A DNA stretch of 64,000 bases. It comes from Candidatus Magasanikbacteria bacterium RIFOXYC2_FULL_42_28. Lineage in GTDB: Bacteria > Patescibacteriota > Patescibacteriia > Magasanikbacterales > GWA2-37-8. Below, piece by piece: positions 1,490-63,644 of this stretch. Below the pieces are notes generated by a model that ran no database searches, was not told the DNA's origin, and saw only the letters and a program-made list of their open reading frames with translations. The stretch covers positions 23,347 through 87,346 of the forward strand of contig MFQZ01000008.1 of the NCBI GenBank assembly GCA_001784435.1. The letters are read 5' to 3'. Made by a program: the position numbers and the translations under genes. Within the stretch, counting starts at the first letter, position 1. Every line of letters starts with the position of its first letter.

Positions 1490-1578
1490 ATTTTGGCTAA
1501 TATTAGTATAATACTAAATAAAAAAACTGTCAACTTTTTGCTGACAGTTTCTGTGGATAACTACTAAATTTGGCTAAC

Positions 1579-3723: not shown

Positions 3724-3830
<107 letters not shown>

Positions 3831-3904
3831 AATATTGACTCTTTTTGGTTTAATTTGCGAATATTCTACGAATAAATAATTGGGTGCGGAACAATTCAAG
3901 CACA

Positions 3905-6890
<2,986 letters not shown>

Positions 6891-7140
6891 ACGAAAACAC
6901 TAAATAGTGCTTTCGCCTACAATTTAAAATTGCTTACCTACCCTATTATTTTATTCGTTGAATTTTTGAATTGTCAAAGTTCAGTCAGATCATTCGCAAG
7001 TATGTTACGAAATATTTTTCGCCTCATGCTTGCGCTTGCCTGAATTTTTTTCTTGTGGATTACACCGGCTCTGCCGGCGTTAAAAATTACCGCAAAATTT
7101 ATTTCGCCTTGGCTCGTAAATTTTGTTAATTTTTAAAAAA

Positions 7141-7165: not shown

Positions 7166-7420
7166 TATAAAATACAGAAAAAGAATTCTGCTTTTAACCG
7201 CTTGGATATTTTGAGTAAGAATTAGAGATCAGTAACATGATGGTGTTAGATTCTTTTCCCGACTTAGTCGGGACTTACCCAGAGGTCCAAGCGAACGTTA
7301 GTTCAAGTCTTGTGGACGTGGTCCCGATTTATCGGGAAGTTAACGCACAGGCGATTATACAATAAATACAAAAAGCTGTCAAGGGAGGGTTGTGGATAAC
7401 CTGTATACAAATTGTATCCA

Positions 7421-12859: not shown

Positions 12860-13663
12860 TCAATCTGGTTGCCAGAAACAATACGGAGAATAATATCCAC
12901 ACATATCTTGCGTATCGGCTTCGGCACAAAGATCAGTTATGGAAAACCTCGTTTGCCCACCAGGTACTCCTTGACCATTTTCCATACTGCATGCTCCATC
13001 ACACACGCCAGCCACATCCTGATCCCTTTGTAAATTACAAAACGACGTACAAAATTGATCCGGCGAAATGTCGCCACCCATACATTTCCCTGGTACTTCG
13101 TCTAATATGTCTCCCCCTCCTTCTTTCCAATCACAATATGTGGTCTCTGCCAAGCATTGCTCTTCATCTTTATCGCCACACTGGGCTTGTTGAACCGCCA
13201 ACTGCTGTTCCGCAGTCATAACATCGGTATATTTTGGTGTGCATCCGACTTCGCCATGTCCTCCACTACCCCCCCCCGCCAACTTCCCAATCACCCAATT
13301 CCCCACGCCCAAAGAGACAAAAATTATCGCCATACCAATTAACGCCGCCTGAATTATATCTTGCGCTTTGGTGATATCTTCTTGGTTGCCGCGCGCGATT
13401 AACCACCGTCCACCACCATAAAGCATTAAGCCAAACAACGCCACCCCAATCATCGCCAAAACAATACCCAAGACCTGGCCAACCAAAGACAATAAATCCG
13501 CCCACTGGCCTACGTTAGGCTCCTTAGCATCAGCAATATACCCGGCTTTTGCTCCGCTATCAGACAATCCGTAATCTGCGGTCGTGGCCTTAGTCGCAAT
13601 AACAAAAAACGAAAACACGCCCAAAGCGACAACAAATAATAAAATAATAATTTTGAATTTCAT
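12860..13663 (-). CDS. T4SS-pilin-like (TrbC/VirB2-like two-TM) surface protein with a Cys-rich C-terminal domain; distant paralog of the 31.9-37.2 kb array
   Basis: signal peptide, core LYGGGRWLIARGNQEDITKAQDIIQAALIG, and a C-terminal domain with about 14 Cys; start taken at MKFKIIILLF (alternative MLNNT at 13687). Confidence 0.55.
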   Translation of the reverse strand: MKFKIIILLFVVALGVFSFFVIATKATTADYGLSDSGAKAGYIADAKEPNVGQWADLLSLVGQVLGIVLAMIGVALFGLMLYGGGRWLIARGNQEDITKAQDIIQAALIGMAIIFVSLGVGNWVIGKLAGGGSGGHGEVGCTPKYTDVMTAEQQLAVQQAQCGDKDEEQCLAETTYCDWKEGGGDILDEVPGKCMGGDISPDQFCTSFCNLQRDQDVAGVCDGACSMENGQGVPGGQTRFSITDLCAEADTQDMCGYYSPYCFWQPD

Positions 13664-13822: not shown

Positions 13823-13965
13823 CAAATTTCAAAATCCAAATTTCCAATGTCAAATCAATATCAAAGCCAAAATGTCAAACCAAACCAGGTAATACAGTTG
13901 GTATTGATTTTTTGTAAATAACCTGTTATAATCGTTTGGAAATTGGATATTGGAAATTTGAAATT
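13823..13965. repeat. AT-rich palindromic GGAAATT-family element (arms TTTCAAAATCCAAATTTCCAATGTCAAAT ... TTGGAAATTGGATATTGGAAATTTGAAAT) between two tRNAs
   Basis: seen directly; same family as 33945, 34588, 38643, 39681, 41887 and 62236. Confidence 0.6.
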
Positions 13966-13990
13966 CCCCCGACTAAGTCGGGGGCTACAC

Positions 13991-33042: not shown

Positions 33043-33540
33043 TTACTCTGGGCAACTTTCACCAGCACGCCAAACCCCATCGCCATTTGCACAATCAGCT
33101 TTGCTGATACCGCCCACAACTGTATCTATACATTCTTCCACACCATCGGCATCTGTTAACACGCACTTACCCCCCCCGCCACCCCCACCCACCAACCTAT
33201 TCGTCACAAACGCCGTAATCGCATATGCCAAAAATACAATTGTGATGCCGATTAAGGCCGCTTCCAAGGTGTCTTTGGCTTTAGTAACTTTTTCGTCATT
33301 GCCTTGAGCGGTCATCCAACGAATGCCGGCGTAAACCGTTAAGATGAAAAATACCGTGCCAATTAAAGCCAAAATCGTGTTGATTACTAAACCGGTGGTG
33401 CTTTCAAGATTAGGTGTCAAGCCGGTTTTTCCGCCGATTTGACTCAATTTTGTGCCAGCGTCATTAATTGTCAAAGCACTTACACTTAAAGGCACAAGTA
33501 AAACTGTGGCTAAAATGATAGTAAAAAAAATCTTACGCAT
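33043..33540 (-). CDS. T4SS-pilin-like protein, paralog 3, with poly-Gly linker and Cys-rich C-terminus
   Basis: core YAGIRWMTAQGNDEKVTKAKDTL. Confidence 0.6.
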   Translation of the reverse strand: MRKIFFTIILATVLLVPLSVSALTINDAGTKLSQIGGKTGLTPNLESTTGLVINTILALIGTVFFILTVYAGIRWMTAQGNDEKVTKAKDTLEAALIGITIVFLAYAITAFVTNRLVGGGGGGGKCVLTDADGVEECIDTVVGGISKADCANGDGVWRAGESCPE

Positions 33541-33933: not shown

Positions 33934-33944
33934 AGTTTGATTAA

Positions 33945-34060
33945 TATCAAATTTCCAATGTCAAATGTCAAATCAATTTCAAAATCCAAATTTCAAAAAA
34001 CGATTTGACATTTAAATTTTGGATTTGATTGGAAATTGGAAATTTAGATTTTGACATTTC
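33945..34060. repeat. about 115-bp near-perfect AT-rich palindromic element of the GGAAATT family
   Basis: CAAATTTCCAATGTCAAATGTCAAATCAATTTCAAAATCCAAATTTC / GATTTGACATTTAAATTTTGGATTTGATTGGAAATTGGAAATTTAG; near-identical copy at 34588-34702. Confidence 0.7.
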
Positions 34061-34157
34061 ACTCAACCTATTTCCCGACAGGGGGTTGCGAGTTCGCCCA
34101 CAAACGCAACTGTTTAAAATTGCGAGCGAGCGCGCGAACCCCCTGCCGAAAAATATA

Positions 34158-34547: not shown

Positions 34548-34587
34548 ATTCTCACCCCCTTTCGCAATTTTAATATCATATTATTAA

Positions 34588-34702
34588 TTTCAAATTTCCA
34601 ATGTCAAATGTCAAATCAATGTCAAAATCCAAATTTCAAAACGCGATTTGACATTTAAATTTTGGATTTGATTGGAAATTGGAAATTTGGATTTTGACAT
34701 TG
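34588..34702. repeat. palindromic GGAAATT-family element, copy nearly identical to 33945-34060
   Basis: seen directly. Confidence 0.7.
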
Positions 34703-34743
34703 CTAATATTATACCACATTTATTTTTTCGCCACAACTACAAA

Positions 34744-39611: not shown

Positions 39612-39680
39612 AATTTTAAGTGATTATTTCATTGAAAATATTATAGCTTTTTTAACTTTATTTTACAAGAGAGAACTTTA

Positions 39681-39790
39681 ATTTCAAAATCCAAATTTCC
39701 AATTTCCAATCAAATCCAAAATCCTAATATCAAATTTGACATTTTGGCTTTGACATTGATTTGACATTGGAAATTGGAAATTTGACATTT
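39681..39790. repeat. GGAAATT-family palindromic element immediately upstream of the PilX-like gene
   Basis: seen directly. Confidence 0.6.
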
Positions 39791-41167
39791 TCACTCTATC
39801 TCTTCCCAACTCACCAAAAAATATTCCGACCCAACCGGAAAACCGGGGGGTGGATTTAGAGTTAAATTGGCATCGTAAGTGGCATAGGTATTTTTGTAAC
39901 CCGACACCACCGACCCGCCACCGGACACATAACTCCAAGTCCACAAATCATTGGAAATTATCGAACCATAAATAGTTAAACTTTCCCGTTTATTGCCCAT
40001 ATAAAAATATCGCTTGGCCGCGCCGGTTTGGGCGAGCATGGCCGCGTCCACTTCCAAGTAATTAGGCGCGATGTAGGGCAACAAAATATTTTTCTCAGCA
40101 ATCAATCCCAAAACATTAGTGCCGTCTTTCGCTAAATAAGTTAAATTATTGTTAATAACAATTGATTTGTCATCCGCCGTGCCGACCGTCGCCCGACCGT
40201 TGACAATCCCGTCCACCCATACCATATCTTCTACATATATATAGCCATTGGTCGGCATATCATATACCACTGCCGTGCCAAAAGTGGCGGCGTCAATGCA
40301 AAACCAGCCAAAGCGCGCGTGGCCATTGCCCCAATAATCTTGGCCGTAATAACAATCCGTGGTATTAACTTTGTAAATATTAATTTTGCCATCAGCGCGA
40401 AATTCCAGCCGATATCCTTGCTTACCGGACGATGTTAAATAAATACCATTAATTTCCGCCTCGCGTTTAATTTCGGCCAGTTTGGCGGTAACGCGCGAAA
40501 AATCTTGCGCCGGCACCGGAAATTCCCACAAACTCTCGTCGCCGTCGCCCCACACTCCGGGTTTTTCTTGATTACCGCAACCGTGATGTTGTTTACATAT
40601 ATAAGTAGGCACCGCCGAGGTAATGGGTGCGTTGCCAATGCCGTCAAAGCGCGCCCCGCCGTTAGCATGCAGTTTGCCGTTGGCGGTTTCGCTGTCGCCA
40701 ATCCAAATATCCACATTGGTAAGATACGCAAAATCCGTTAAAGCCGGAAACCCGACGCGCGCTTTTAAAGTGCGTTTGCTATCGGGCTGTAAATCCAACC
40801 AGCCGGTGGATTCAATCGTAACGACCGTGGAACCGCTTTGGGGTGGAATAATATTTAAAGAATAATGGCCGATGACATTGCCATCTTTATCTTCGTATTC
40901 GTGGATGTATGGCCCAACCGCGCCCGTGCCGTCTTGATAATCAGTTTTATCATGCGCCAAATGCCAGCGATAATAATTCACGCCCGCCTCGGCAATTTGA
41001 AAAGCCATTTCGCGATTATGTTTATGAACCGAAGCCCGATTTTCCAAAACCGCGTAACCGGTAACACCGACGACAATTAAACTAAAACTAATGGCGCCGA
41101 AGATGAGGGCAAAGAGTAATGCTGTTCCCCTTTTGTCAAATTTTAATTTTTTATAAATATTCAGCAT
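39791..41167 (-). CDS. PilX-like type IV pilus minor-pilin/assembly protein (large secreted protein)
   Basis: N-terminus KRGTALLFALIFGAISFSLIVVG resembles the PilX_N domain; 458 aa. Confidence 0.4.
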   Translation of the reverse strand: MLNIYKKLKFDKRGTALLFALIFGAISFSLIVVGVTGYAVLENRASVHKHNREMAFQIAEAGVNYYRWHLAHDKTDYQDGTGAVGPYIHEYEDKDGNVIGHYSLNIIPPQSGSTVVTIESTGWLDLQPDSKRTLKARVGFPALTDFAYLTNVDIWIGDSETANGKLHANGGARFDGIGNAPITSAVPTYICKQHHGCGNQEKPGVWGDGDESLWEFPVPAQDFSRVTAKLAEIKREAEINGIYLTSSGKQGYRLEFRADGKINIYKVNTTDCYYGQDYWGNGHARFGWFCIDAATFGTAVVYDMPTNGYIYVEDMVWVDGIVNGRATVGTADDKSIVINNNLTYLAKDGTNVLGLIAEKNILLPYIAPNYLEVDAAMLAQTGAAKRYFYMGNKRESLTIYGSIISNDLWTWSYVSGGGSVVSGYKNTYATYDANLTLNPPPGFPVGSEYFLVSWEEIE

Positions 41168-41289: not shown

Positions 41290-41922
41290 TCAATTTGTCT
41301 TAAGATTTCTAATCGCCGCCTTGGTCTCAATCGCAAACGGCACCGGCGCCACATTAGGTTTTTCTTCTAATAATAAATTTATGCCAATCACCCGCACCAG
41401 CGCCGGATCAATCGGTGCTGACATCGGCGTGCCGGTCGCGCCGGTATAATCCTCATCATAATAATAAAACAGCGACGAGGTGGTATTGGCGACATCATGA
41501 ACAATATCAGTAACAGTTTCGCTCCCTAAATTATACGCGAGCGGTGTGCCGGTCGCTTTCACTATCCCCACTTTCAACGTCGTGCTCACCAAAAAATATC
41601 TAATCCTCTCCCGAAAAGAATCCGCGTCTAAATTGGAATAAAAAACCACCTCTTGGGCACCAGCCGACTCCAAACCATAACCGCCCGTGGCCGACTGCCC
41701 GGCGCGACGCAATTGATTAACAAAATCCTGCACCACCTTACGCCCTTCGTTTTGGGTGGACAACTGCTCCCACACCACATCGCGCCCCCGAAATCCCCAT
41801 ATAAAAATTTCCATCGTGCCCGCTGACACAATCAAAAAGATTCCAATCGCCACAAGGATTTCAATAATGGACATGCCGCGGGTATCAGTTTTGAATTTGG
41901 GATTTTGGATTTGATTTGACAT
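41290..41922 (-). CDS. prepilin-type N-terminal cleavage/methylation domain protein (pseudopilin)
   Basis: class III signal RG-MSIIEILVAIGIFLIV. Confidence 0.6.
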   Translation of the reverse strand: MSNQIQNPKFKTDTRGMSIIEILVAIGIFLIVSAGTMEIFIWGFRGRDVVWEQLSTQNEGRKVVQDFVNQLRRAGQSATGGYGLESAGAQEVVFYSNLDADSFRERIRYFLVSTTLKVGIVKATGTPLAYNLGSETVTDIVHDVANTTSSLFYYYDEDYTGATGTPMSAPIDPALVRVIGINLLLEEKPNVAPVPFAIETKAAIRNLKTN

Positions 41923-41945
41923 TGGAAATTTGGATTTTGAAATTA
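41887..41945. repeat. half-copy of a GGAAATT-family element, overlapping the 5' end of 41290-41922 and reaching the stop of 41943-43745
   Basis: GATTTGACATTGGAAATTTGGATTTTGAAATT. Confidence 0.5.
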
Positions 41946-43745
41946 CAACGTGGACATATTAACAAACGTATCCGCGTTCCCGACAACATCCACCTGACCG
42001 GCATTATTCGCATACCCCGAACGCGTTACCGTCACGGTATAAGAACTGGCGGATAAACCGCTAAAAAACGCCTGCCCGGGCGGGGTGCAACTATTAGTAT
42101 AGGTAATGGACAATTCGGATAAAATGGGGGTGTAGTTGTTGTTAGTAGTGCTTAAATACGCCTTATAGCGCAAATAACGCTTATCACTCAAAGAAGCCGG
42201 AATAGTGGGATTAGCAACCGTAAAATAGGTGCCGGCGGTGCCGTCCGGACCGACAAAACTCCAACTGGCCGGCGTGGAAGAATTGGAAGTGGCTAATTGA
42301 AATTTCAAAGAATTAGCGCCGGTTTGCGACGGCTGGGTCAAGGGGTTAATTACCAAATTGCGCAAAGTTATAGGCGCGCCAAAATCAAAAGTAGATGATT
42401 CTAAATTACCGCTAAGATAATATTTAGAACCATTCTTTTTTAATTTGACATTGCCGGCCGTGGCGCCGGACACATTAATCGTGCCACTATCGCTAAAATA
42501 TTTATTTTCAATTACATAAGCCACCTGTCCGGTTCCGCCCGACCAATCGGTCTGACGCAAGTAACCGACGCCCGTGGATAAGGTCTGATCATAACCGCCT
42601 CCGCCGGTCAAACGCACAGACGCGTCCGACAAGGGCAAACCGGTGCCGGAATCAAACACTTTTACCAATAAAGAATTAGCGCTATGCGGTTGTAAAATCG
42701 CGGTAACATCTTGCGTAGCGCCCGCGTGTAAAACAATCGGCAAGGGTGGAATCGTGCCAGCAATATCATAAACACCACTCGTGGCACTGATATGATAATC
42801 ATTAAATTCCAAATTATTCAAAGCAATACTGCCGGCGCCACCCGTTAAAAAATTTTGATTATATTTATAAACATCCGGATCAATACTCAACATTTTTTCA
42901 CTGCCGTACATATTAAAATTCGCGTTGCCGACCGCGACGCAGGTGGCGTTAACGGAATTAAAATTAATACTCCCCAATAAATCAATGGAAAAACTGATAT
43001 CAGTCACGGTTTGCTCATTAACATTAGACGGTGGTTTAACCGGAGCCGGTACCGCTGGCGAAGTCGCTACCGTATAATCAGAAGAATACCCGTCTTTGGA
43101 CACCGTAATATGATAAGCCAAAGTGCCGGTGGGAGTATCAATAATCCGCAAATAACCATTGGCATCAGTGGTGTCATCAATAATTAAATCCGGATTTAAA
43201 TCAGTATTAGCCACATGAACATCAGCCCCGGCCACGGGTAAACCATCTTCGCCAAACACCTCAATAAAAAGCGCGCCATTACTGCTCGCCCCTTCTAGTT
43301 GTCGCGGCGACACCATCGTACTTAATTTAATCGGCATGGCCTGACCGCAACCAAAACAAATTGCCGACATTTCCACTAATTTATAATCGGCCGGTGAAGT
43401 GTCATTCGGGCTACCGCCGATGGTACCGTCAAAAGCATCATCAATATTGCGCACCGTGGCCGTTATCAAAAAATCCAAATTATTACGTGTGACGGTTTTC
43501 GTGCGCGCCAGTGCCCCCACCGGCACACCGTTTAAAATACCAACACTTTCATATGGCAAATTGCGCGCCACTTCCAATTCTTCTGACAGTAAAGCCGTTT
43601 CCAAAATTTTAATGCGCGATTGATAAACAATTTTAAAAACCAGCGATAATCCGCTATAAATCCCAATCGCGAATAACAAAAATATGGCCGAGGCGACCAC
43701 GGCTTCCACGAGAGTGAATCCTTGGTGGGATTTTATTTTTGGCAT
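41943..43745 (-). CDS. large (600 aa) prepilin-type minor pilin / pilus-associated adhesin-like protein
   Basis: class III signal QG-FTLVEAVVASAIFLL, then a long beta-rich Thr/Ser/Gly-rich domain. Confidence 0.55.
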   Translation of the reverse strand: MPKIKSHQGFTLVEAVVASAIFLLFAIGIYSGLSLVFKIVYQSRIKILETALLSEELEVARNLPYESVGILNGVPVGALARTKTVTRNNLDFLITATVRNIDDAFDGTIGGSPNDTSPADYKLVEMSAICFGCGQAMPIKLSTMVSPRQLEGASSNGALFIEVFGEDGLPVAGADVHVANTDLNPDLIIDDTTDANGYLRIIDTPTGTLAYHITVSKDGYSSDYTVATSPAVPAPVKPPSNVNEQTVTDISFSIDLLGSINFNSVNATCVAVGNANFNMYGSEKMLSIDPDVYKYNQNFLTGGAGSIALNNLEFNDYHISATSGVYDIAGTIPPLPIVLHAGATQDVTAILQPHSANSLLVKVFDSGTGLPLSDASVRLTGGGGYDQTLSTGVGYLRQTDWSGGTGQVAYVIENKYFSDSGTINVSGATAGNVKLKKNGSKYYLSGNLESSTFDFGAPITLRNLVINPLTQPSQTGANSLKFQLATSNSSTPASWSFVGPDGTAGTYFTVANPTIPASLSDKRYLRYKAYLSTTNNNYTPILSELSITYTNSCTPPGQAFFSGLSASSYTVTVTRSGYANNAGQVDVVGNADTFVNMSTL

Positions 43746-47397: not shown

Positions 47398-47569
47398 TTA
47401 TGCACAGCGCCAGTTTTACGAAAATGTGGTATAATATGTGTGAAATACTAAACCCTAAATCCTAAACTCTAAAGAAGTCCAAATATTTAAATTCAAAAAA
47501 AACAAAAATTTTGACATTTTTATTTGGAATTTGTTTAGAACTTAGTGTTTAGAATTTAGAATTTTTATT

Positions 47570-49915: not shown

Positions 49916-50350
49916 ACTGTCTCGCTGTCTTTCCCCTCCTTTTCAAGGAGGGGACCAAGGGGCGGTTCACTCACCAACAAAAAAATATCCGCCTCACAGC
50001 GAATATTTTTATTATAGAAGCAAAACCACCCTCGCCAAAATTAAACTATTTTAATTCTAACGAGGTAGGGGTGGTCTTGCGATGTTCTGTAAGTCCGCCC
50101 ATACCTTTTCTTCGTCATTTTTTGTCCTCACCCTCTTGATCGTTGGCGCCCTCACTTCTCAACGACTCTGCGTAGTCGTTGTCGGACTGTAGCTTTTCCA
50201 ACTGTTCTTTTTCATCTTCTTCTTTTGTTTTTTTTGACTTCTTTTTGAAATCGGACGACATTCGCCCTCCTTTTGCCAGAGAGTGATTTCTCGGTCTCGG
50301 AAACTCTAACAAATAACTCTCTCTCTCTGTCAAATATCCCCCCCCCCCCA

Positions 50351-53476: not shown

Positions 53477-53507
53477 CAAAAAACCGTCACAATCGTGGCG
53501 GTTTTTT
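53477..53507. terminator. A-run/hairpin/T-run element AAAAAACCGTCACAATCGTGGCGGTTTTTTT; copy 1 of a 4-copy terminator repeat (others at 54685-54713, 57212-57246 and 58945-58975)
   Basis: seen directly. Confidence 0.55.
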
Positions 53508-53530
53508 TGTATAAAAATTGCGCGCCACAA

Positions 53531-54586
53531 CTAACCAACCACATAAGAAGTCGACTTGCCCTTGCCGGTCGCCTTAATCATTTTAAGTTTTTTTAATTTT
53601 TGCAATTGCAACTGCGCTGATCGACGCGGACAAGATAAAATATCTTCCGCATCGGCAACGGTAATCCGGCCGACCTGATCCAAGAAATCAATAATTTTTA
53701 ACTGTTCCGGCGAAAGATAAATTTGTGATTTTATTTTACCAGCAACATTACGAGCGGACAATGGCAACACCTTACTCTTCACCTCATCAATTTCCGCTTT
53801 AAATCCTTTTACAAAATATTCCAACCAAGAAGTGAGGTCAGTACGCCTGGCTTCATAAGTTTTACCTAAATTAATCGCTTTATAATATGACGATCGGTCG
53901 GTATTATAATAATCCTCCAAGGCAAACAATCGCCGAAAGTCATACCCGCGCTGATAAAGTATTAAGGTCGCCAAAGCGCGCGCGGTACGCCCATTACCAT
54001 CGTTAAATGGATGAATAGCGGCAAGCTCCATATGAGCAACGGCCGCCACAATCACCGGGCTTATTTCCTTCTCCTCACTGTCTTTAATCCAAGTAACAAA
54101 TTCTGCCATAAGTTGCGGTACTCGCTTTGCCTCCGGCCCGGTATATAAAATTTCTTGTGGCATGCCCAAACGCCGACGCACCACATAAATCGGGCCGGGA
54201 CGATAATGGCCGGAAAACTGTGAATTTAATGTTTTATCAGTCACTAATTTATGCATTTTTAAAATCACTTTTTCCGTTATTAGCTGTTTTTCGGCCACTA
54301 TTTTTTCAATAAATTTCAAAACATTTAAATAATTTTTTACTTCATAAATATCTCGATCCGGCGCGTCAATTTTCTTGTTAGCATAAAGCGCCTCCACCTG
54401 CACCATATTCAGTTGGTTCCCTTCAATTTCAGTGGAATGATGGGTCATACGGATAATCGCTTGCCGGCGTAATTTTATTTCTTGTTGCGGTAAAATTTTA
54501 GCACGATCAATAATGCCTTTGGCTTCGGCGATAGCAGTAAGGTCGCTCAAAATCTTGTCGGTATATTTAAATATTGGAGTAAACAT
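53531..54586 (-). CDS. Fic-family protein with a C-terminal wHTH
   Basis: Fic motif HPFNDGNGRTAR. Confidence 0.75.
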   Translation of the reverse strand: MFTPIFKYTDKILSDLTAIAEAKGIIDRAKILPQQEIKLRRQAIIRMTHHSTEIEGNQLNMVQVEALYANKKIDAPDRDIYEVKNYLNVLKFIEKIVAEKQLITEKVILKMHKLVTDKTLNSQFSGHYRPGPIYVVRRRLGMPQEILYTGPEAKRVPQLMAEFVTWIKDSEEKEISPVIVAAVAHMELAAIHPFNDGNGRTARALATLILYQRGYDFRRLFALEDYYNTDRSSYYKAINLGKTYEARRTDLTSWLEYFVKGFKAEIDEVKSKVLPLSARNVAGKIKSQIYLSPEQLKIIDFLDQVGRITVADAEDILSCPRRSAQLQLQKLKKLKMIKATGKGKSTSYVVG

Positions 54587-54684
54587 ATGATTTGTATTAT
54601 TTTATAACTACACCAGTATTATAGCATAAAATTACGATTCGCGCAAGATTCGCGCAACAATCGCGCAAAACTTTATGAAGTTTT

Positions 54685-54713
54685 AAAAAACCGTCACAAT
54701 CGTGACGGTTTTT
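54685..54713. terminator. terminator repeat copy 2 (AAAAAACCGTCACAATCGTGACGGTTTTT)
   Basis: seen directly. Confidence 0.5.
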
Positions 54714-54743
54714 AATAACAAACCAATAATCTCTATACTGAAT

Positions 54744-55037
54744 TTATCGCCAAAGATAATTGGCGATACCATTTTCTTCATCCTCTCTCTTCTTGTTATA
54801 TTCAGCAAAATGAATATTTTTCTTTAACTCATCTTGCCAATCCTCTGGTAATTGATCCCAATTATCAAGAAGGTGGCCGGCGGCGTCCCATTCTACGATA
54901 GTGTTATTTCCGCCTTCCACAAAAAATAATCCAGCCACTTGGCCAGCCCAGTCCTTCAATGCTCCACTTAATGGTGGATAATTTTTTTCTTTCTCCACCG
55001 ACGGTTGTGCTACCCCTGGTTGCGGTCGTTTATCCAT
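54744..55037 (-). CDS. hypothetical small protein (Trp/Asp-rich)
   Basis: ORF only. Confidence 0.3.
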   Translation of the reverse strand: MDKRPQPGVAQPSVEKEKNYPPLSGALKDWAGQVAGLFFVEGGNNTIVEWDAAGHLLDNWDQLPEDWQDELKKNIHFAEYNKKREDEENGIANYLWR

Positions 55038-55085
55038 ATTTTTTATATTAAAAATAAAATTGCTTTTGATTAATACTATTATTCT

Positions 55086-55652
55086 TTATTTAGGCTCAGT
55101 AGCCAACAGCAGATTTTCCATATAGAACCCGCCTGGCCAATGAGTACTTTCACCATCATCGTCAACGGGAATTATTTTTGTCTCTTCAATCTGATTTTTT
55201 AATCTATTGTGAGGCAATGCTGATGTTGAAACAACGAATACTATATCTTCTGCCTTATTTTTACCTCTTCTCACCCGACCGTACGCATCGCGGGCCATTG
55301 GCTCTGATCTAGTTACGACAACACATGGTGTCTCACCCTCCATGAGCTCGCTATTTAAAAATGCTTGACCAACGGGAGAAAGGGAAACTTCTGGGTAAAC
55401 CATTATTTTTGTTCCCTGCCCCCTCCATTCGGCAATTTGCTTGGCTAATGCCAACCGGCCTGACCCATCGCCGTGTATCTGGAGCACCTTCCAACCACTG
55501 GGAAGTTCGTCAAAATTCAATTCTGGAGCTTGTTCTTGTCCCTCTTTTAATAAATAAGCCTGAAAATTTTCAGCTGTATTATCTATTAAAGTATCCAAAC
55601 TCAGAATTTCCGGCTGTGGTTCGCCACGTATTTTCCCTTCGCTTATTGTCAT
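55086..55652 (-). CDS. hypothetical protein expressed from a poly-C-containing repeat promoter
   Basis: ORF; no recognisable family. Confidence 0.35.
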   Translation of the reverse strand: MTISEGKIRGEPQPEILSLDTLIDNTAENFQAYLLKEGQEQAPELNFDELPSGWKVLQIHGDGSGRLALAKQIAEWRGQGTKIMVYPEVSLSPVGQAFLNSELMEGETPCVVVTRSEPMARDAYGRVRRGKNKAEDIVFVVSTSALPHNRLKNQIEETKIIPVDDDGESTHWPGGFYMENLLLATEPK

Positions 55653-55734
55653 ATATTTTTTAAATTAAAAATAAATTTTTCCCTATTAAGTATACCCCCC
55701 CCCCAACCGCTTTTGGCAAATTAGTTATCCACAG
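55653..55734 (-). promoter_or_regulatory. 82-bp repeat copy 1, read in minus orientation: DnaA box TGTGGATAA, -35 TTGCCA, G10 tract in the spacer, -10 TATACT, AT-rich leader, ATG
   Basis: near-identical to 57723-57804; C-run at 55695-55704. Confidence 0.5.
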
Positions 55735-55809
55735 ATCGCCACCCTTTGGGCTATGACCTTTTTGCAAGGCAGGGCAACCAAAGAGTGAAAAAAATATAAA
55801 AACAGCCGT

Positions 55810-56523
55810 TTAATTTAACACCGATAGATAATTTTTTAACAAAAACACGACCTCCGCGCGCAAATGATTTTTAACCCACGCTTTTTCTTTTTCACTTGGT
55901 AAAAGCTCGGCCAATCCGTGTAAAATTTCATTGTCTTTGACGGCCGCAATTACCGCGATACAATCAGCCAAATGTTCTTTGACGGTTTTGTCGGTTCTGG
56001 CTCGAAGCACATCGGTATTAATATCCCAATTATTTTTAGCAAAAAACCAAATATCGTAAATATCGCGCACTGCCAATGTTTTTCTATCAGTCAAAGCCGC
56101 CAGTTTACTCGCAAATAGATAATCTTGCTTGCCAACCAGCATCGAAATTCCCAAATAATCTTTCAATTCGTAATGTTCTTTAATATTAGGCATTAAAATT
56201 CTAACATTCACTTCAATTTTGACATTGTGGTCAGTGTCGCCATAAGAAAGTAGAAAAAAAACAGTATTTCGTTTGATATAACTATCCTTGACCTCCCCAT
56301 ATTTTCTAAGCATACCGCCAATTTTTTCCGATACCAATTTTTGCGTGGGCTCATCAGTAATAAATAAATCAAAATCCAAATCCACCGAAAATCTGCCCAG
56401 GGCATAAAAAAAATATATACAGGTTCCACCTTTAAATCCGATGAGCGATGAAATGGAAGTGTCGGAATAAATATCACGCAGAATCTGTCCCATGATAAGT
56501 TGATGTTTTTCTTTATTGAGCAT
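55810..56523 (-). CDS. AbiEii-family (DUF1814) nucleotidyltransferase toxin
   Basis: FKGGTCIYFFYALGRFSVDLDFD matches the AbiEii N-terminal signature. Confidence 0.6.
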   Translation of the reverse strand: MLNKEKHQLIMGQILRDIYSDTSISSLIGFKGGTCIYFFYALGRFSVDLDFDLFITDEPTQKLVSEKIGGMLRKYGEVKDSYIKRNTVFFLLSYGDTDHNVKIEVNVRILMPNIKEHYELKDYLGISMLVGKQDYLFASKLAALTDRKTLAVRDIYDIWFFAKNNWDINTDVLRARTDKTVKEHLADCIAVIAAVKDNEILHGLAELLPSEKEKAWVKNHLRAEVVFLLKNYLSVLN

Positions 56524-57088
56524 ATTTTTGGTAGGTATTTAATCGCTTTATTAATTGCTTATTATCATAAATTTTTACCAATTCAAAACACTGCTCCCAA
56601 TTAATGGATCGTAAATTATCAAAATAAAATTTGGGTGATAAATAAATCGTATCAAGAAACGCTCGTTCTGGCGTGGCGATACAACAATTTTTTTCGTTTC
56701 TAACACCAAGCGCGTTATAAAGCACGCTATTTTTTAATTTTCTATATACAATTTTATTATCATCAATTTCTTTTTTCATTGGATAAGGCCCAGCGACAAA
56801 AATTGAATCATATTGCTGAAAAATAATCCCGGCCTCGCGCAAAACTGTTTCAAAACTTACATAGGACGGGGTATAAATACTGGTCGCTAATTCTTTAACA
56901 TCATATTCCTTGTTCTTGGCAAAAACTCCACGAGTTAAACGAATTAACGACCCCTGATTGGTATAATATTTAAGCTTGGAAAATAAATTCACATTATTGG
57001 TTTCCTCCCAAATCAAAGCAACATCCTTGACGGTAAGGATTGTTTTGGGGGATTCATATAATTTGGCGATTAGGTTGTCGGTGGCCAT
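56513..57088 (-). CDS. AbiEi-type antitoxin/transcriptional regulator, partner of AbiEii (11-nt overlap)
   Basis: position and size; 191 aa. Confidence 0.5.
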   Translation of the reverse strand: MATDNLIAKLYESPKTILTVKDVALIWEETNNVNLFSKLKYYTNQGSLIRLTRGVFAKNKEYDVKELATSIYTPSYVSFETVLREAGIIFQQYDSIFVAGPYPMKKEIDDNKIVYRKLKNSVLYNALGVRNEKNCCIATPERAFLDTIYLSPKFYFDNLRSINWEQCFELVKIYDNKQLIKRLNTYQKYAQ

Positions 57089-57211
57089 ATTACAATATAT
57101 TTAATGGAAAGGTGATATTCTCACCTTTCCATTGTATATTATTTAGACAACTCTGCCAAGTGGACTGGTGGGGATAAGTTAAGTATGTTAACAATTAGTG
57201 CTAAATTAAGC

Positions 57212-57246
57212 AAAAAACCGTCACAATCGTGGCGGTTTTTAAAAAA
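57212..57246. terminator. terminator repeat copy 3
   Basis: AAAAAACCGTCACAATCGTGGCGGTTTTTAAAAAA. Confidence 0.5.
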
Positions 57247-57269
57247 TTACACTATAATTAATATGTTAG

Positions 57270-57722
57270 TCAATTTACAATTCTGTAACCTTGTTCAATA
57301 AGTATCTCATTAACAGCGCGAAGTAGTGTGCCCGCTGATGCCTGCTCTTCGTGAATCAGAGTTGTTTTAACTTCAAGAGTGCCAGATTCTTCGGTATCAT
57401 CCTTAGCAACTTCAATTTCTACTGATTGTCCGTGATACAAACCAAGCCCATTAAAATCAATTTGGAATTTTTTTGAATTTACAACAGTGTAAGAAAATCC
57501 TTGACTTCTGCCTTCACTGTCTACCGATTTTCCTTCTTCATACGGCCGATCTGGAGCAAGCGCTTCATTTTCGTATTTATGAACCAATTGTAGTAAATCT
57601 GCTTTATGTTGTGAAAGCGTATCAACTATTTCGCGTGTTTGATGGTCTAACTCCGGAAGTTTTTTGTCTTTTGAGACAGAGGAATGCCCAAAGTCTACTT
57701 CCCGATTATGCTGTATGTCCAT
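57270..57722 (-). CDS. hypothetical acidic protein expressed from the second poly-C repeat promoter
   Basis: ORF only. Confidence 0.35.
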   Translation of the reverse strand: MDIQHNREVDFGHSSVSKDKKLPELDHQTREIVDTLSQHKADLLQLVHKYENEALAPDRPYEEGKSVDSEGRSQGFSYTVVNSKKFQIDFNGLGLYHGQSVEIEVAKDDTEESGTLEVKTTLIHEEQASAGTLLRAVNEILIEQGYRIVN

Positions 57723-57804
57723 AATATTTTTAAATTAAAAATAAATTTTTCCCTATTAAGTATACCCCCCCCCCCAGCCACTTTTGGCAAATTAGTTATC
57801 CACA
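57723..57804 (-). promoter_or_regulatory. 82-bp repeat copy 2 (G11 tract in the spacer; DnaA box TTATCCACA at 57796-57804)
   Basis: seen directly. Confidence 0.5.
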
Positions 57805-57979
57805 GGGCTACACCCCGTAAACTACAAAAGCAGTAAAATTCTGGGACAAGAAAATATTTAAAAATAGTCCCAATTTAGTCGGGACTATTTTTTTGTTTAT
57901 TTTTCTCACTATCGTTTTTTATAAATATTATGCGAGCCGGTATCAAGCAGATTCACAACATCGGGAGCGGAGAACTCAA

Positions 57980-58944: not shown

Positions 58945-58975
58945 AAAAAACCGTCACAAAATCGCGACGGTTTTT
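58945..58975. terminator. terminator repeat copy 4 (variant loop)
   Basis: AAAAAACCGTCACAAAATCGCGACGGTTTTT. Confidence 0.45.
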
Positions 58976-58993
58976 ATTTTACACAAACTATCC

Positions 58994-61268: not shown

Positions 61269-63644
61269 TTACCCCATCCGACTCAACCTTGCGAAAACAA
61301 AAAATATCACACTAAACCCAACCCCCATCACAACCGGCGCGAAGAGCGACAACCAATTGGTTTTCCCCGGCCGAAACCGACGCAAAAATAATGAATTAAT
61401 AACAACCGATACCGAAGACAACGCCATGGCCAATCCGGCCAATTCCGGTTTTAACACCAAACCAATGCCGGCAAAAACTCGCGCGGCAATTGGAATGCCG
61501 ATGACATTATAGAACAACGCAAAAAACATATTTTGTTTTATTTTGCCCATGGTCTCGCGGCTTAATTGAATCGCGGTCAGCACATCGCGCAAATCGTTTT
61601 TGATAATTACGATGCCACCAGTTTCCATCGCCACGTCTGTGCCACTACCCATTGCAATTCCCAGATCCGCCTGCGCCAACGCCGGCGCGTCGTTTATGCC
61701 GTCCCCCACCATGGCGACTTTCACACCCGCGCTTTGTAATTTTTTCACCTCGTTCGCTTTTTCTTCCGGCAACACCTCGGCCAATACATTTTTAATTCCC
61801 GCTTGACGCGCGATTGCTTCGGCCGTCCGACGATTATCACCGGTAATCATATATACTTCTAGCCCACGCTTCTGCAACATTTTTACCGCTTCCACTGTTG
61901 TCTCTTTAATTGTGTCCGCGACGGCAATCAACCCAACCAAATCATTTTCAATAACCAAAAACATTACGGTCTTCCCCTCTTTTTCCAACTGCTCTACGAC
62001 ATAATTATTAGCGGGCGCAATCACCAAATTATTATCAGCCAATAATTTCCGATTTCCCAATAAAATTTTCTGCTCATTAATTTTACCAACTACACCATGC
62101 CCGGGAACTGCGCTAAATTCCTGTACCTCCAAAAGCACTAAATTTTTCTCCTTGGCCTTATTCACAATCGCATCAGCCAAAGGATGTTCTGACTTGGATT
62201 CTATGGAAGCGGCAATTTGAAGAATTTGATCATTGGGATTTGAAAATTGATTGGAAATTGGAAATTGGAAATTGGAAATTGCGATGATATCCGTCAATTC
62301 CGGCTCTCCCTTAGTCAAAGTCCCGGTTTTATCAAAAACAATCACTTTAATTTTACATGCCGCTTCCAATGGCTCACCCCCTTTGATAAGTACGCCGTGT
62401 TCTGCACCTTTACCCGTGCCAACCATAATCGCGGTCGGCGTGGCGAGGCCCAAAGCGCACGGACAAGCAATAACGATAACGGAGGTAAACGCCATTAACG
62501 CGAACGCGAGCGACGCGCCCAAGAAAAAATACCATACCAAACCGGTCAAAATCGCAATGCCAATTACCGCCGGCACAAAGTAAGCGGAAATTTTATCCGC
62601 GAACGCCGCAATGGGCGCTTTGCTCCCCTGCGCGTCTTCCACCACGCGAATAATTTGCGCGAGCATAGTTTCGCCTCCGACTTTCGTCGCGACAAATTCA
62701 AAACTGCCGTGCTTATTTATGGTGGAACCGATTACCACATCGCCCACATTTTTTTCCACCGGAATACTTTCACCCGTAATCATACTTTCGTCCACAGCTG
62801 ACTGGCCTTTGGCAATTTTTCCATCCACCGGAATTTTTTCACCCGGACGCACGACAATGACATCGCCCGCGACCACCTGTTCAATCGGTACATCCGCCGT
62901 TACACCATTTTTAATTACGCGCGCAGTTTTGGCTTGCAAACCCATTAATTTTTTAATCGCGTCCGAGGTCTGGCCTTTGGTTTTTGCTTCCAACCATTTA
63001 CCTAACACCACGAAAGTAATTAGAAACGCCGCGGTCTCAAAATATAATTCCGGAATTTTCGCGCCGTTTAAGCCGATAAAACTATTGGTGATCCGAACAT
63101 AATTAAGATATTGTACTAAACTGTAAAAGAACGCGGTGCTCGTGCCAATCGCAATCAAACTATCCATGTTGAAAGTTTTCATTTTCAAACTACTCCACAT
63201 TCCTTTGTAAAATCCGGTGCCAATAATAAACTGCACCGGAATGGTCAAAATCAAAGAAATTATTCCGACATAAGGCAATAGTGCCGCTCGGAGTGGAATA
63301 AATGAAAAGAAATCAAACAACATGAAATACAACATCGGCAAAGACAACCCAAAACTCCACCAGAATTTTTTGCCATATCCGGTTAACACAGTCGCGCGCT
63401 CGCGTCTATCCGCCTCCGGATCAGAGTTATCATTCAAACGCGCTTTGTAACCGGCCTTTTCCACCGCCGAAATTAATTGCGCGACGGTCGTGAGCGAAGT
63501 ATCAAACACCACCCGCGCTTTTTCCGCGGCAAAATTTACATTGGCGGTTTGAACGCCCGTCACCTCTTTTAATCCCCGCTCAATCAAAGTGGCGCAAGAC
63601 GCGCAGTGCATGCCTGACAAATTTAATTGTTTATTATCGATCAT
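61269..63644 (-). CDS. copA: copper-translocating P1B-type ATPase with an in-frame repeat-derived insertion in the N-domain
   Basis: HMA domain [11 protein letters not shown] motif, [17 protein letters not shown]; start taken at MIDNKQ. Confidence 0.9.
62236..62282. repeat. GGAAATT-family repeat segment ((TTGGAAA)x4) embedded in-frame in copA, encoding [14 protein letters not shown]
   Basis: seen directly. Confidence 0.6.

What the first reader, a model, noticed from the sequence alone, without database searches (positions are those of the whole stretch)
55653..57804. Two unrelated genes driven by near-identical 82-bp promoter cassettes with poly-G spacers of 10 and 11, suggesting phase variation
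55653-55734 and 57723-57804 are about 90% identical. Each abuts the start codon of a different minus-strand gene of unknown function (55086-55652 and 57270-57722).

Read in gene orientation, each cassette is: TGTGGATAA (perfect DnaA box), TTGCCA (-35), 9 nt, G10 or G11, TATACT (-10), an AT-rich 40-nt leader, then ATG. The homopolymer sits inside the -35/-10 spacer, making it 19 or 20 nt. Loss of 2-3 G by slipped-strand mispairing would give an optimal 17-nt spacer. This is the architecture of classic phase-variable fimbrial and outer-membrane-protein promoters.

The two copies already differ by one G. An AbiEi/AbiEii module lies between them.
Basis: partly seen in the sequence, partly recalled or inferred. 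Interest (0 to 1): 0.7.

Follow-up and report, generated by a model that had tools for sequence, protein, structure and literature searches.

The report
Duplicated poly-G promoter cassette, likely phase-variable
Two copies of one promoter-plus-leader cassette, each with a run of 10 or 11 G that pushes the promoter elements 2-3 bases too far apart, sit in front of two unknown genes in a strain-variable defence island of an uncultured groundwater bacterium; this is probably a slippage-driven on/off switch, but no read or expression data prove it.

Summary
Two 82-bp direct repeats (57723-57804 and 55653-55734, minus strand, about 93% identical) each end at the ATG of a different orphan gene, of 150 and 188 aa. 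AbiEi/AbiEii lies between them.

Each copy reads: TGTGGATAA, 5 nt, TTGCCA, 9 nt plus G11 or G10, TATACT, a 36-nt unstructured AU-rich leader, ATG. Strong promoters in this window use a 17-nt spacer (10 of the sites matching at least 11/12, none at 19 or 20). The cassettes have 20 and 19, so G7-G9 would restore 16-18.

Three lines support a slippage switch:
- G/C runs are bimodal: three of length 6, none of 7, five of 8-12.
- One of the only two detectable homologues of the 188-aa protein has G9 inside TAGACA-16-TATACT. The other has (AG)8 upstream.
- Assemblies that are otherwise identical differ at the tracts (G10, G11, G11N, G12), or break there.

These differences could equally be Illumina homopolymer error. 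No reads or expression data were available.

The host is a Candidatus Magasanikbacteria (CPR) genome. I found no report of repeat-driven promoter switching in CPR. I file it as a new member of the porA-type class of promoter-spacer switches, with moderate confidence. The functions of both genes remain unknown.

The parts
57723..57804 (-). Cassette A. TGTGGATAA 57804-57796; -35 TTGCCA 57790-57785; 20-nt spacer 57784-57765, of which G11 is 57775-57765; -10 TATACT 57764-57759; AU-rich leader 57758-57723.
55653..55734 (-). Cassette B. TGTGGATAA 55733-55725; -35 TTGCCA 55719-55714; 19-nt spacer 55713-55695, of which G10 is 55704-55695; -10 TATACT 55694-55689; AU-rich leader 55688-55653.
57270..57722 (-). 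150-aa orphan gene driven by cassette A (A3J93_02600). It has no homologue and no family hit.
57211..57245 (-). Terminator hairpin after the 150-aa gene. It belongs to the island's repeated terminator family AAAAACCGTCACAATCGTGRCGGTTTTT.
56513..57159 (-). AbiEi antitoxin gene (56513-57088) with its own promoter TTGGCA-17-TACAAT (57159-57131). An inverted repeat at 57097-57139 is a probable operator.
55810..56523 (-). AbiEii nucleotidyltransferase toxin gene.
55086..55652 (-). 188-aa gene driven by cassette B (A3J93_02585). Only two remote homologues exist. The low-confidence model is an alpha/beta fold resembling P-loop NTPases.
54744..55058 (-). 97-aa orphan gene (54744-55037), probably co-transcribed with the 188-aa gene. 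It is preceded by the third copy of the AU-rich 19-mer TTTATTTTTAATNTAAAAA (55040-55058).
54680..54719 (-). Terminator of the same family, after the 97-aa gene.
53478..54586 (-). Fic gene of SoFic type (53531-54586), followed by a terminator of the same family (53478-53511).
50303..50349 (-). Third repeat-bearing promoter in the window. G12 (50349-50338), ATAT, -35 TTGACA (50333-50328), a 19-nt spacer containing (GA)5, then -10 TAGAGT (50308-50303). It lies upstream of a 48-aa ORF with a Shine-Dalgarno site (50115-50261).

Best explanation
The 82-bp repeat is a portable expression cassette: a sigma-70-type promoter fused to an unstructured AU-rich leader that has no Shine-Dalgarno site. It has been copied in front of two unrelated orphan genes in a strain-variable defence island (SoFic, AbiE) of a Candidatus Magasanikbacteria (CPR) genome.

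The G10 or G11 run fills the 3' half of the -35/-10 spacer and stretches it to 19 or 20 nt. This genome's strong promoters use 17. The assembled majority genotype therefore probably transcribes both genes weakly.

Slipped-strand mispairing in the G run during replication would produce minority cells with G7-G9, which gives a 16-18 nt spacer. Those cells would express the 150-aa gene, or the 188-aa plus 97-aa operon. Each unit would switch independently and reversibly. This is promoter-spacer phase variation of the kind known from Neisseria porA.

Shown here: the repeat, the promoter layout, the abnormal spacing, the excess of long G runs, and repeats upstream of both homologues.

Inferred: that transcription starts at the cassette, that tract length changes in vivo, and that expression depends on tract length.
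For: 1. Promoter identity.
- TTGCCA/TATACT scores 10/12 and is the top sigma-70 match in both cassettes.
- A 24-nt stretch identical to copy A, TGGATAACTAATTTGCCAAAAGTG, recurs in an unrelated metagenomic contig. There TTGCCA is followed by exactly 17 nt, TATAAT, and a gene start 8 nt later.
- TATACT is the -10 of a TTGACA-17-TATACT site at 1533.

2. Spacing.
- Of the sites in the window matching TTGACA/TATAAT at 11/12 or better, 10 have a 17-nt spacer and none has 19 or 20.
- Four of the five perfect 12/12 sites have a 17-nt spacer; the fifth has 21.

3. Tract statistics.
- G/C runs number three of length 6, none of length 7, and one each of lengths 8, 9, 10, 11 and 12.
- Nine-G matches number 10, against 0.34 in shuffles.
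- Three of the five long runs lie in promoter regions. The other two lie in the Gly linkers of T4SS-pilin-like genes.

4. Comparative evidence.
- An exhaustive HMMER search finds only two true homologues of the 188-aa protein.
- One (L013) has G9 inside its best promoter match, TAGACA-16-TATACT, directly against the same -10 hexamer.
- The other (L012) has (AG)8 about 75 nt upstream of its operon.

5. Assemblies.
- With flanks identical or nearly so, cassette A reads G11 (window, ERZ27254852), G11+N (JGI 3300002209), G10 (ANAN16 sample SAMN03842452) and G12 (SAMN03842450).
- Two contigs stop 2 G into the tract.
- The G12 element also differs between assemblies.

6. No reading frame crosses the cassette tracts. 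By my reading, stop codons follow the G run in all three frames. The effect must therefore act on transcription.

7. Precedent: porA has 9-11 G between -35 and -10, with graded expression (PMC3639595). Repeats that change promoter-element spacing are a known mechanism (PMC5084427).
Against: - There are no raw reads, transcription start data or expression data.
- The assembly differences resemble Illumina error after a homopolymer. G12+ATACT and G11+N+ATACT have the same total length as G11+TATACT. The JGI contig has a second N 22 nt downstream.
- Many assemblies come from the same aquifer samples and are not independent.
- Cassette B reads G10 in every assembly that spans it.
- Reaching a 17-nt spacer needs a loss of 2 (B) or 3 (A) G, so ON cells would be rare.
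- A 19-20 nt spacer may still work in this organism's RNA polymerase, or the -10 alone may suffice.
- The promoter assignment around (AG)8 in L012 is weak, at 7/12 (my count; it fell below the 8/12 listing threshold).
- In L013 the gene caller runs an ORF through the G9, so that tract could act on translation instead.
- No clear terminator follows AbiEii, so the 188-aa gene may also be read through from the AbiE operon.
- The products are not surface proteins, and their function is unknown.
Confidence: 0.5

Rival explanations
1. A fixed duplicated promoter with no switching. The cassette is an ordinary promoter plus leader copied within the island by segmental duplication or gene conversion. 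The G run is an incidental spacer sequence, and the apparent length differences are sequencing or assembly errors at a homopolymer.
For: - Cassette B is G10 in all assemblies that span it.
- The variants G11N and G12+ATACT keep the total length, as a miscalled base after a G run would.
- Logan contigs break 9 nt after the tract, exactly where a 31-mer leaves the shared 38-mer. Those breaks are therefore caused by the repeat, not by heterogeneity (the 31-mer argument is my inference).
- The terminators in the island are also duplicated, so copying of regulatory modules is common here.
Against: - It does not explain the strong excess of G runs of 8 or more with none of length 7.
- It does not explain why such runs sit in promoter spacers that are 2-3 nt too long.
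- It does not explain why both remote homologues of the 188-aa gene also carry repeats upstream.
- G10 in L007 is a true length difference, not a substitution.
Confidence: 0.3
2. The main role of the two copies is as recombination substrates. The 2071-bp unit (150-aa gene, AbiEi, AbiEii and one cassette) entered, or can leave or amplify, by homologous recombination between the cassettes. The direct repeats are then the scar of a Campbell-type insertion. This is compatible with switching and does not exclude it.
For: - Contig L009 (ERZ27254750) joins the 3' end of AbiEii and the B-type cassette to the 150-aa gene, AbiEi and the 5' end of AbiEii. That is the junction expected from a circle or a tandem duplication of the unit.
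- In sample ERZ4902888, homology to the window ends at about 57860 and unrelated genes follow the 80-aa gene instead of the island (L023). In the same sample the 150-aa gene sits behind a different upstream sequence (L010).
Against: - L009 is a single 1.7-kb contig from a fragmented assembly and could be chimeric.
- The uninterrupted identity between the copies is only about 48 nt.
- No empty-site contig was found that joins the cassette A flank directly to the 188-aa gene.
- No terminal inverted repeats and no recombinase are present.
Confidence: 0.12
3. The cassettes are promoters regulated by DnaA, or remnants of a replication origin, with the perfect DnaA box as the key element.
For: - TTATCCACA occurs 4 times, against 0.59 expected.
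- All four copies lie 5-18 nt upstream of a -35 hexamer. These include the rRNA promoter and a TTGACA-17-TATACT promoter.
Against: - GC skew does not change sign anywhere in the window, and there is no cluster of boxes and no dnaA or dnaN gene nearby.
- The homologous promoter in L011 has CCTGGATAA instead of the box.
- The box is in the opposite orientation in the cassettes.
- Its placement before many unrelated promoters suggests a general upstream promoter element. Nothing here explains the G runs.
Confidence: 0.05

Closest known systems
Neisseria meningitidis porA promoter (poly-G between -35 and -10); also opc and fetA poly-C promoters (the latter two from my own knowledge)
   Same: A run of 9-11 G lies inside the -35/-10 spacer of a sigma-70 promoter. 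Single-base slippage changes the spacing and therefore the promoter strength (PMC3639595, PMC5084427).
   Different: - In porA the common length (11G) gives the optimal spacing and loss of G lowers expression. Here the assembled lengths give 19-20 nt, so the default state is predicted to be low.
- The products here are cytoplasmic orphan proteins in a defence island, not outer-membrane antigens.
- The host is an uncultured CPR bacterium.
- The same cassette is present twice.
Bordetella fim2/fim3 poly-C promoters, Haemophilus hifA/hifB (TA)n, and Mycoplasma hyorhinis vlp poly-A promoters (from my own knowledge)
   Same: A repeat between promoter elements sets the spacing. Several genes in one genome carry the same kind of switch and vary independently.
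   Different: - Those genes encode fimbriae or surface lipoproteins.
- The Bordetella tract separates an activator site from the -10.
- No activator site is known here.
Phase-variable defence genes: repeat-controlled restriction-modification mod/hsdS genes, called phasevarions (from my own knowledge)
   Same: Defence-related loci are switched stochastically by simple repeats, which spreads the cost and the risk across the population.
   Different: - Those repeats are mostly inside the reading frame.
- Here the AbiE and Fic genes have their own promoter-like sites (AbiE) and terminators, and carry no repeat.
- Only the neighbouring orphan genes are gated.

Membership tests
Repeat-mediated promoter-spacer phase variation (porA type) | A hypermutable homopolymer or short repeat, at least about 8 G/C long | tested here: met
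   G11 at 57765-57775 and G10 at 55695-55704.
Repeat-mediated promoter-spacer phase variation (porA type) | The repeat lies between the -35 and -10 hexamers, so its length sets their spacing | tested here: met
   TTGCCA-20/19-TATACT is the best match in each cassette, at 10/12. The window's strong promoter-like sites use 17 nt. The promoter is predicted from sequence, not mapped.
Repeat-mediated promoter-spacer phase variation (porA type) | Tract length varies within or between populations of the same strain | tested here: inconclusive
   Cassette A reads G10, G11, G11N or G12 in different assemblies, and two contigs end in the tract. Cassette B is always G10. Homopolymer sequencing error is not excluded.
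Repeat-mediated promoter-spacer phase variation (porA type) | Expression level depends on tract length, and switching is reversible and frequent | not testable with these tools
   This needs reporter fusions, RNA-seq or read-level data.
AbiE type IV toxin-antitoxin / abortive infection system | An AbiEi antitoxin gene overlapping or adjacent to an AbiEii nucleotidyltransferase gene, with its own autoregulated promoter | tested here: met
   PADLOC AbiEi E = 3.5e-54 and AbiEii E = 4.9e-64. The genes overlap by 11 nt. TTGGCA-17-TACAAT carries an inverted repeat. This applies to the module between the cassettes. The 150-aa and 188-aa genes match no AbiE model.
Replication origin / DnaA-box cluster | Several clustered DnaA boxes with an AT-rich unwinding element, a change of sign in GC skew, and dnaA or dnaN nearby | tested here: not met
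   Each cassette has one box. GC skew is negative throughout this part of the window and cumulative skew falls monotonically from 30 kb to the end. No dnaA or dnaN gene was recognised in the ORFs examined near the cassettes (52-61 kb).
Transposon, MITE or integron cassette | Terminal inverted repeats, target-site duplication, attC site or a nearby recombinase | tested here: not met
   The only inverted repeats are terminator and operator palindromes. The repeats are direct, and there are no other copies in the window.

The most novel reading that the evidence does not exclude
CPR bacteria use contingency loci. A portable expression cassette gated by a simple repeat has been placed in front of several orphan genes in a strain-variable defence island. 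Only a small, changing fraction of cells then expresses each gene. The association between repeat and promoter has persisted across the whole (tiny) family of the 188-aa protein, although the repeat type changed: G9-11 in two members and (AG)8 in the third. This would be the first set of phase-variable genes described in ultra-small episymbiotic bacteria. It would also mark the gated orphan genes as candidates for new, costly defence or toxin functions.
Probability: 0.3. Interest if true: 0.65.

Novelty: new member of a known kind. Interest (0 to 1): 0.45.

Why it matters
Phase variation by simple repeats is known mainly from host-adapted pathogens.

Showing it in a groundwater CPR bacterium would extend bet-hedging by hypermutable repeats to organisms with tiny genomes and an episymbiotic lifestyle. 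In particular, it would extend it to genes that sit beside anti-phage systems rather than to surface antigens.

It would also give a practical rule for mining metagenomes: long G runs inside promoter spacers that are 2-3 nt too long flag conditionally expressed and probably costly genes of unknown function.

In addition, poly-G tracts break or corrupt assemblies at exactly these places. That matters for the curation of CPR genomes.

Tried and rejected
**More copies of the cassette**
- None exist elsewhere in the window, allowing up to 3 mismatches.
- The extra 10 kb to the left of the window has no G/C runs of 8 or more.
- GTDB genomes have no copy of the 5' half.
- IMG/VR has no copy of either half.
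- JGI metagenomes gave one hit, L011, a normal 17-nt promoter without a G run.
- A looser pattern for the promoter module gave one hit in GTDB, in a Saprospiraceae contig. It lies at a gene end with no sensible spacing, and I judge it a chance match.

**Function of the proteins**
- Pfam, NCBIfam, PADLOC, PHROGs and PDB sequence searches gave nothing significant for the 150-, 188- and 97-aa products.
- Phage GenBank and IMG/VR gave no relatives.
- The AlphaFold model of the 188-aa protein is poor: pLDDT 41.8 from the single sequence and 52.7 with three sequences.
- The AFDB fold library was unavailable.
- The two cassette-driven proteins are unrelated to each other.

**RNA element**
- Rfam gave no credible hit.
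- The leader folds no better than shuffled sequence, with z about 0.

**Translational switching**
- Rejected for the window cassettes, because stop codons follow the G run in all three frames (my reading).

**Mobile element**
- There are no terminal inverted repeats.

**Contig breaks as evidence of heterogeneity**
- Rejected for the Logan contigs, which break where a 31-mer leaves the shared repeat (my inference).

**Right-hand extension of the window**
- The look-up of the 821-aa end gene was not on record.
Full report
**1. What is in the sequence**

Read on the minus strand, both copies run as follows: CTGTGGATAACTAATTTGCCAAAAG, then TGGCT (copy A) or CGGTT (copy B), then G11 or G10, then TATACTTAATAGGGAAAAATTTATTTTTAATTTAAAAA, then 4-5 variable bases, then ATG.

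- The 24-mer of the 5' half and the 38-mer of the 3' half each occur exactly twice in 64 kb. Shuffles give 0.00 expected.
- Copy A (57723-57804) precedes a 150-aa ORF (57270-57722).
- Copy B (55653-55734) precedes a 188-aa ORF (55086-55652).
- Between them lie AbiEi and AbiEii. AbiEi has its own promoter-like site, TTGGCA-17-TACAAT, overlapped by an inverted repeat.
- Downstream of the 188-aa gene come a 97-aa ORF, a SoFic-type Fic gene (PADLOC E = 8.6e-55) and, on the other strand, recA.

The only correction is that the leader is 36 nt rather than 40.

**2. The organism and the island**

The two proteins are named in NCBI as hypothetical proteins A3J93_02585 and A3J93_02600 of Candidatus Magasanikbacteria bacterium RIFOXYC2_FULL_42_..., a CPR genome from an aquifer.

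The region is strain-variable.
- In sample ERZ4902888, homology to the window ends in the loop of the terminator after the 80-aa gene, at about 57860. Unrelated genes follow (L023).
- In the same sample an identical 150-aa gene sits behind a different upstream sequence, with homology starting only 16 nt before the ATG (L010).

The units of the island share three regulatory modules.
- The promoter cassette, present twice.
- A 19-nt AU-rich motif, TTTATTTTTAATNTAAAAA, directly before the ATG of the 150-, 188- and 97-aa genes. It occurs three times, against 0.18 expected.
- A near-identical palindromic terminator after the 150-aa gene, the 97-aa gene and Fic.

**3. Is the cassette a promoter?**

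The evidence is by sequence only, but it is consistent.

- In both cassettes the best sigma-70 match is TTGCCA/TATACT, at 10 of 12.
- I surveyed the whole window for strong matches, meaning at least 11 of 12 to TTGACA/TATAAT. Ten have a 17-nt spacer and none has 19 or 20.
- Four of the five perfect 12/12 sites have a 17-nt spacer, including the one before the 23S rRNA gene. The fifth has 21.
- TATACT is also the -10 of a TTGACA-17-TATACT site at 1533.
- The single metagenomic hit to the 5' half (L011) shares 24 nt, TGGATAACTAATTTGCCAAAAGTG, with copy A. It continues with a spacer of exactly 17 nt, TATAAT, and a glycosyltransferase start codon 8 nt later.
- A 21-mer hit alone could be chance in a collection of that size. 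Its placement in a perfect promoter frame makes chance unlikely (my estimate).

The cassettes therefore look like a normal promoter whose spacer has been lengthened to 19 or 20 nt by the G run. G7-G9 would give 16-18 nt.

The leader is unstructured, with z about 0, and has no Shine-Dalgarno site. This suggests AU-rich, Shine-Dalgarno-independent initiation (inference).

**4. Is the G run a switch?**

Evidence for:

- *Length distribution.* G/C runs in the window number three of length 6, none of length 7, and one each of lengths 8, 9, 10, 11 and 12. A neutral decline from three runs of length 6 predicts well under one run of 8 or more (my estimate).
- *Location.* The three longest runs are all in promoter regions. 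The third (G12, 50338-50349) abuts the -35 of a TTGACA-19-TAGAGT site whose spacer contains (GA)5. The G8 and G9 runs encode Gly linkers in T4SS-pilin-like proteins.
- *Comparative evidence.* An exhaustive HMMER search of 1.84 billion representative proteins finds only two true homologues of the 188-aa protein, at 40% and 35% identity.
  - In L013, which has 49% G+C and is clearly another organism, the best promoter match upstream is TAGACA-16-TATACT. G9 fills the spacer and sits against the same -10 hexamer.
  - In L012 an (AG)8 run lies about 75 nt upstream of the two-gene unit that contains the homologue. The surrounding hexamers, TTGCAT-19-TAGCAT, match only 7/12 by my count, so that promoter call is tentative.
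  - Such repeats are rare. None occurs in the 10 kb of housekeeping genes examined to the left of the window. Finding one upstream of all three family members is unlikely to be coincidence.
- *Assemblies of cassette A, with flanks identical or nearly so.*

| Assembly | Cassette A tract |
|---|---|
| Window, and ERZ27254852 | G11 + TATACT |
| JGI 3300002209 | G11 + N + ATACT |
| ANAN16 sample SAMN03842452 (L007) | G10 + TATACT |
| ANAN16 sample SAMN03842450 (L024) | G12 + ATACT |
| L026, L027 | contig stops 2 G into the tract |

  The G12 element reads G12+A in the window and G11-T-G+A in two other assemblies.

Evidence against, or neutral:

- G12+ATACT and G11+N+ATACT keep the total length of G11+TATACT. 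The JGI contig has another N 22 nt downstream. This is the signature of Illumina miscalls after a long G run.
- Only the G10 in L007 is a true length change.
- Cassette B is G10 wherever it is spanned.
- The samples come from one aquifer, and some assemblies re-use the same reads.
- The Logan contigs break 9 nt after the tract. That is where a 31-mer leaves the shared 38-mer, so the repeat explains those breaks, not heterogeneity (my inference).

Tract-length polymorphism is therefore suggested but not established.

**5. Mechanism I commit to (confidence about 0.5)**

I propose slipped-strand mispairing in the G run, which changes the -35/-10 spacing. The assembled majority, at 19 and 20 nt, would be in a low state. 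Rare G7-G9 variants would be in a high state. The two transcription units would switch independently.
- Unit 1: cassette A, the 150-aa gene, terminator.
- Unit 2: cassette B, the 188-aa gene, the 97-aa gene, terminator.

By my reading, stop codons follow the G run in all three frames, so the effect cannot be translational in this genome.

The closest documented analogue is the porA promoter of Neisseria meningitidis. It has 9-11 G between -35 and -10, with a 2-fold and a 13-fold drop in expression from 11G to 10G and 9G (PMC3639595). Spacing changes caused by intergenic repeats are a recognised mechanism (PMC5084427).

**6. The gated genes**

- All three products lack family hits and have no phage or IMG/VR relatives.
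- The 188-aa family has conserved motifs (LPxxW, GxGxG[RK], YPE, WPGGF).
- In both contexts long enough to judge, the family sits next to a Fic gene. The two Fic proteins are only 25% identical. With n = 2 this is a lead, not a finding.
- The products appear to be cytoplasmic (my reading of the sequences). The biological logic would therefore resemble phase-variable defence or toxin genes more than antigenic variation.

**7. The 'DnaA box'**

- The 9-mer is a perfect consensus and is over-represented, at 4 against 0.59 expected.
- All four copies lie 5-18 nt upstream of a -35 hexamer: the rRNA promoter, the site at 1533 and the two cassettes.
- One-mismatch versions precede the AbiEi and recA promoters.
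- There is no origin signature: GC skew does not change sign in this part of the window.
- I read it as a promoter-upstream element of this genome, with an unknown binding factor. It also supports the assignment of TTGCCA as the -35.

**8. Structural variation**

Contig L009 joins the end of AbiEii and a B-type cassette to the 150-aa gene, AbiEi and the start of AbiEii. That is the junction of a tandem duplication or a circle of the 2071-bp unit. It is one short contig and may be chimeric. If it is real, the direct repeats also act as recombination substrates.

**9. Novelty and verdict**

Full-text searches found no report of repeat-driven promoter phase variation in CPR or Patescibacteria. 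The nearest report is an intragenic hypervariable repeat in a Gracilibacterium (PMC6851277).

The mechanism itself is classic. I therefore rate this as a new member of a known kind, in a new lineage and on new genes, with one unusual feature: a duplicated, portable cassette. Interest is moderate, and the decisive data are read-level tract lengths and expression.

Noticed in passing
window 50303-50349 (-), with ORF 50115-50261 (-): A third repeat-bearing promoter. G12 abuts the -35 of a TTGACA-19-TAGAGT site whose spacer contains (GA)5. It lies upstream of a 48-aa, highly charged ORF with a strong Shine-Dalgarno site. Two other assemblies read G11-T-G instead of G12, and one strain (L016) lacks the whole element.
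   Followed up: partly
window 33170-33177 and 13269-13277 (-): G8 and G9 runs inside T4SS-pilin-like genes (PF18895). They encode the Gly linker between the pilin domain and a Cys-rich C-terminal domain. A frameshift there would remove the C-terminal domain, so this may be translational phase variation.
   Followed up: partly
window 1552-1560, 7391-7399, 55725-55733, 57796-57804; one-mismatch copies at 57169 and 52182: Every perfect TTATCCACA lies 5-18 nt upstream of a -35 hexamer, including the 23S rRNA promoter (TTGACA-17-TATAAT). Near-perfect copies precede the AbiEi and recA promoters. This looks like a general upstream promoter element of this genome rather than an origin feature.
   Followed up: partly
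window 53478-53511, 54680-54719, 57211-57245 (weaker copy at 58947-58980): A near-identical palindromic terminator, AAAAACCGTCACAATCGTGRCGGTTTTT, is repeated after Fic, the 97-aa gene and the 150-aa gene. The units of the island therefore share terminators as well as promoters.
   Followed up: yes
L009 (ERZ27254750 k141_634724), corresponding to window 55641-56075 joined to 56430-57805: A hybrid contig joins the end of AbiEii and a B-type cassette to the 150-aa gene. This is the junction expected for a tandem duplication or an excised circle of the 2071-bp unit. It could also be an assembly chimera.
   Followed up: partly
L023 and L010 (ERZ4902888); window about 57860 and 57738: In this sample, homology to the window ends at about 57860 and unrelated genes follow the 80-aa gene, with the breakpoint in a terminator loop. 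The sample also carries an identical 150-aa gene behind a different upstream sequence. The gene and the cassette are therefore separable modules.
   Followed up: partly
window 13825-13968, 33940-34061, 34583-34704, 39671-39792, 41890-41947, 47510-47567, 62226-62283: Families of intergenic repeats built from short TTGACA/GGAAATT/TTTGGA-like units, many of them near the pilin-like gene cluster. I did not analyse them.
   Followed up: no
L012 570-1454 and 1885-2481; window 53531-54586 and 55086-55652: The 188-aa protein family lies next to a Fic gene in both contexts that are long enough to judge. The two Fic proteins are only 25% identical. A functional link is possible, but n = 2.
   Followed up: partly
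window 3725-6891 (-): 23S and 5S rRNA genes are present. No 16S rRNA gene was found anywhere in the window, so the rRNA operon appears to be split. I believe this has been reported in some CPR genomes (from my own knowledge).
   Followed up: no
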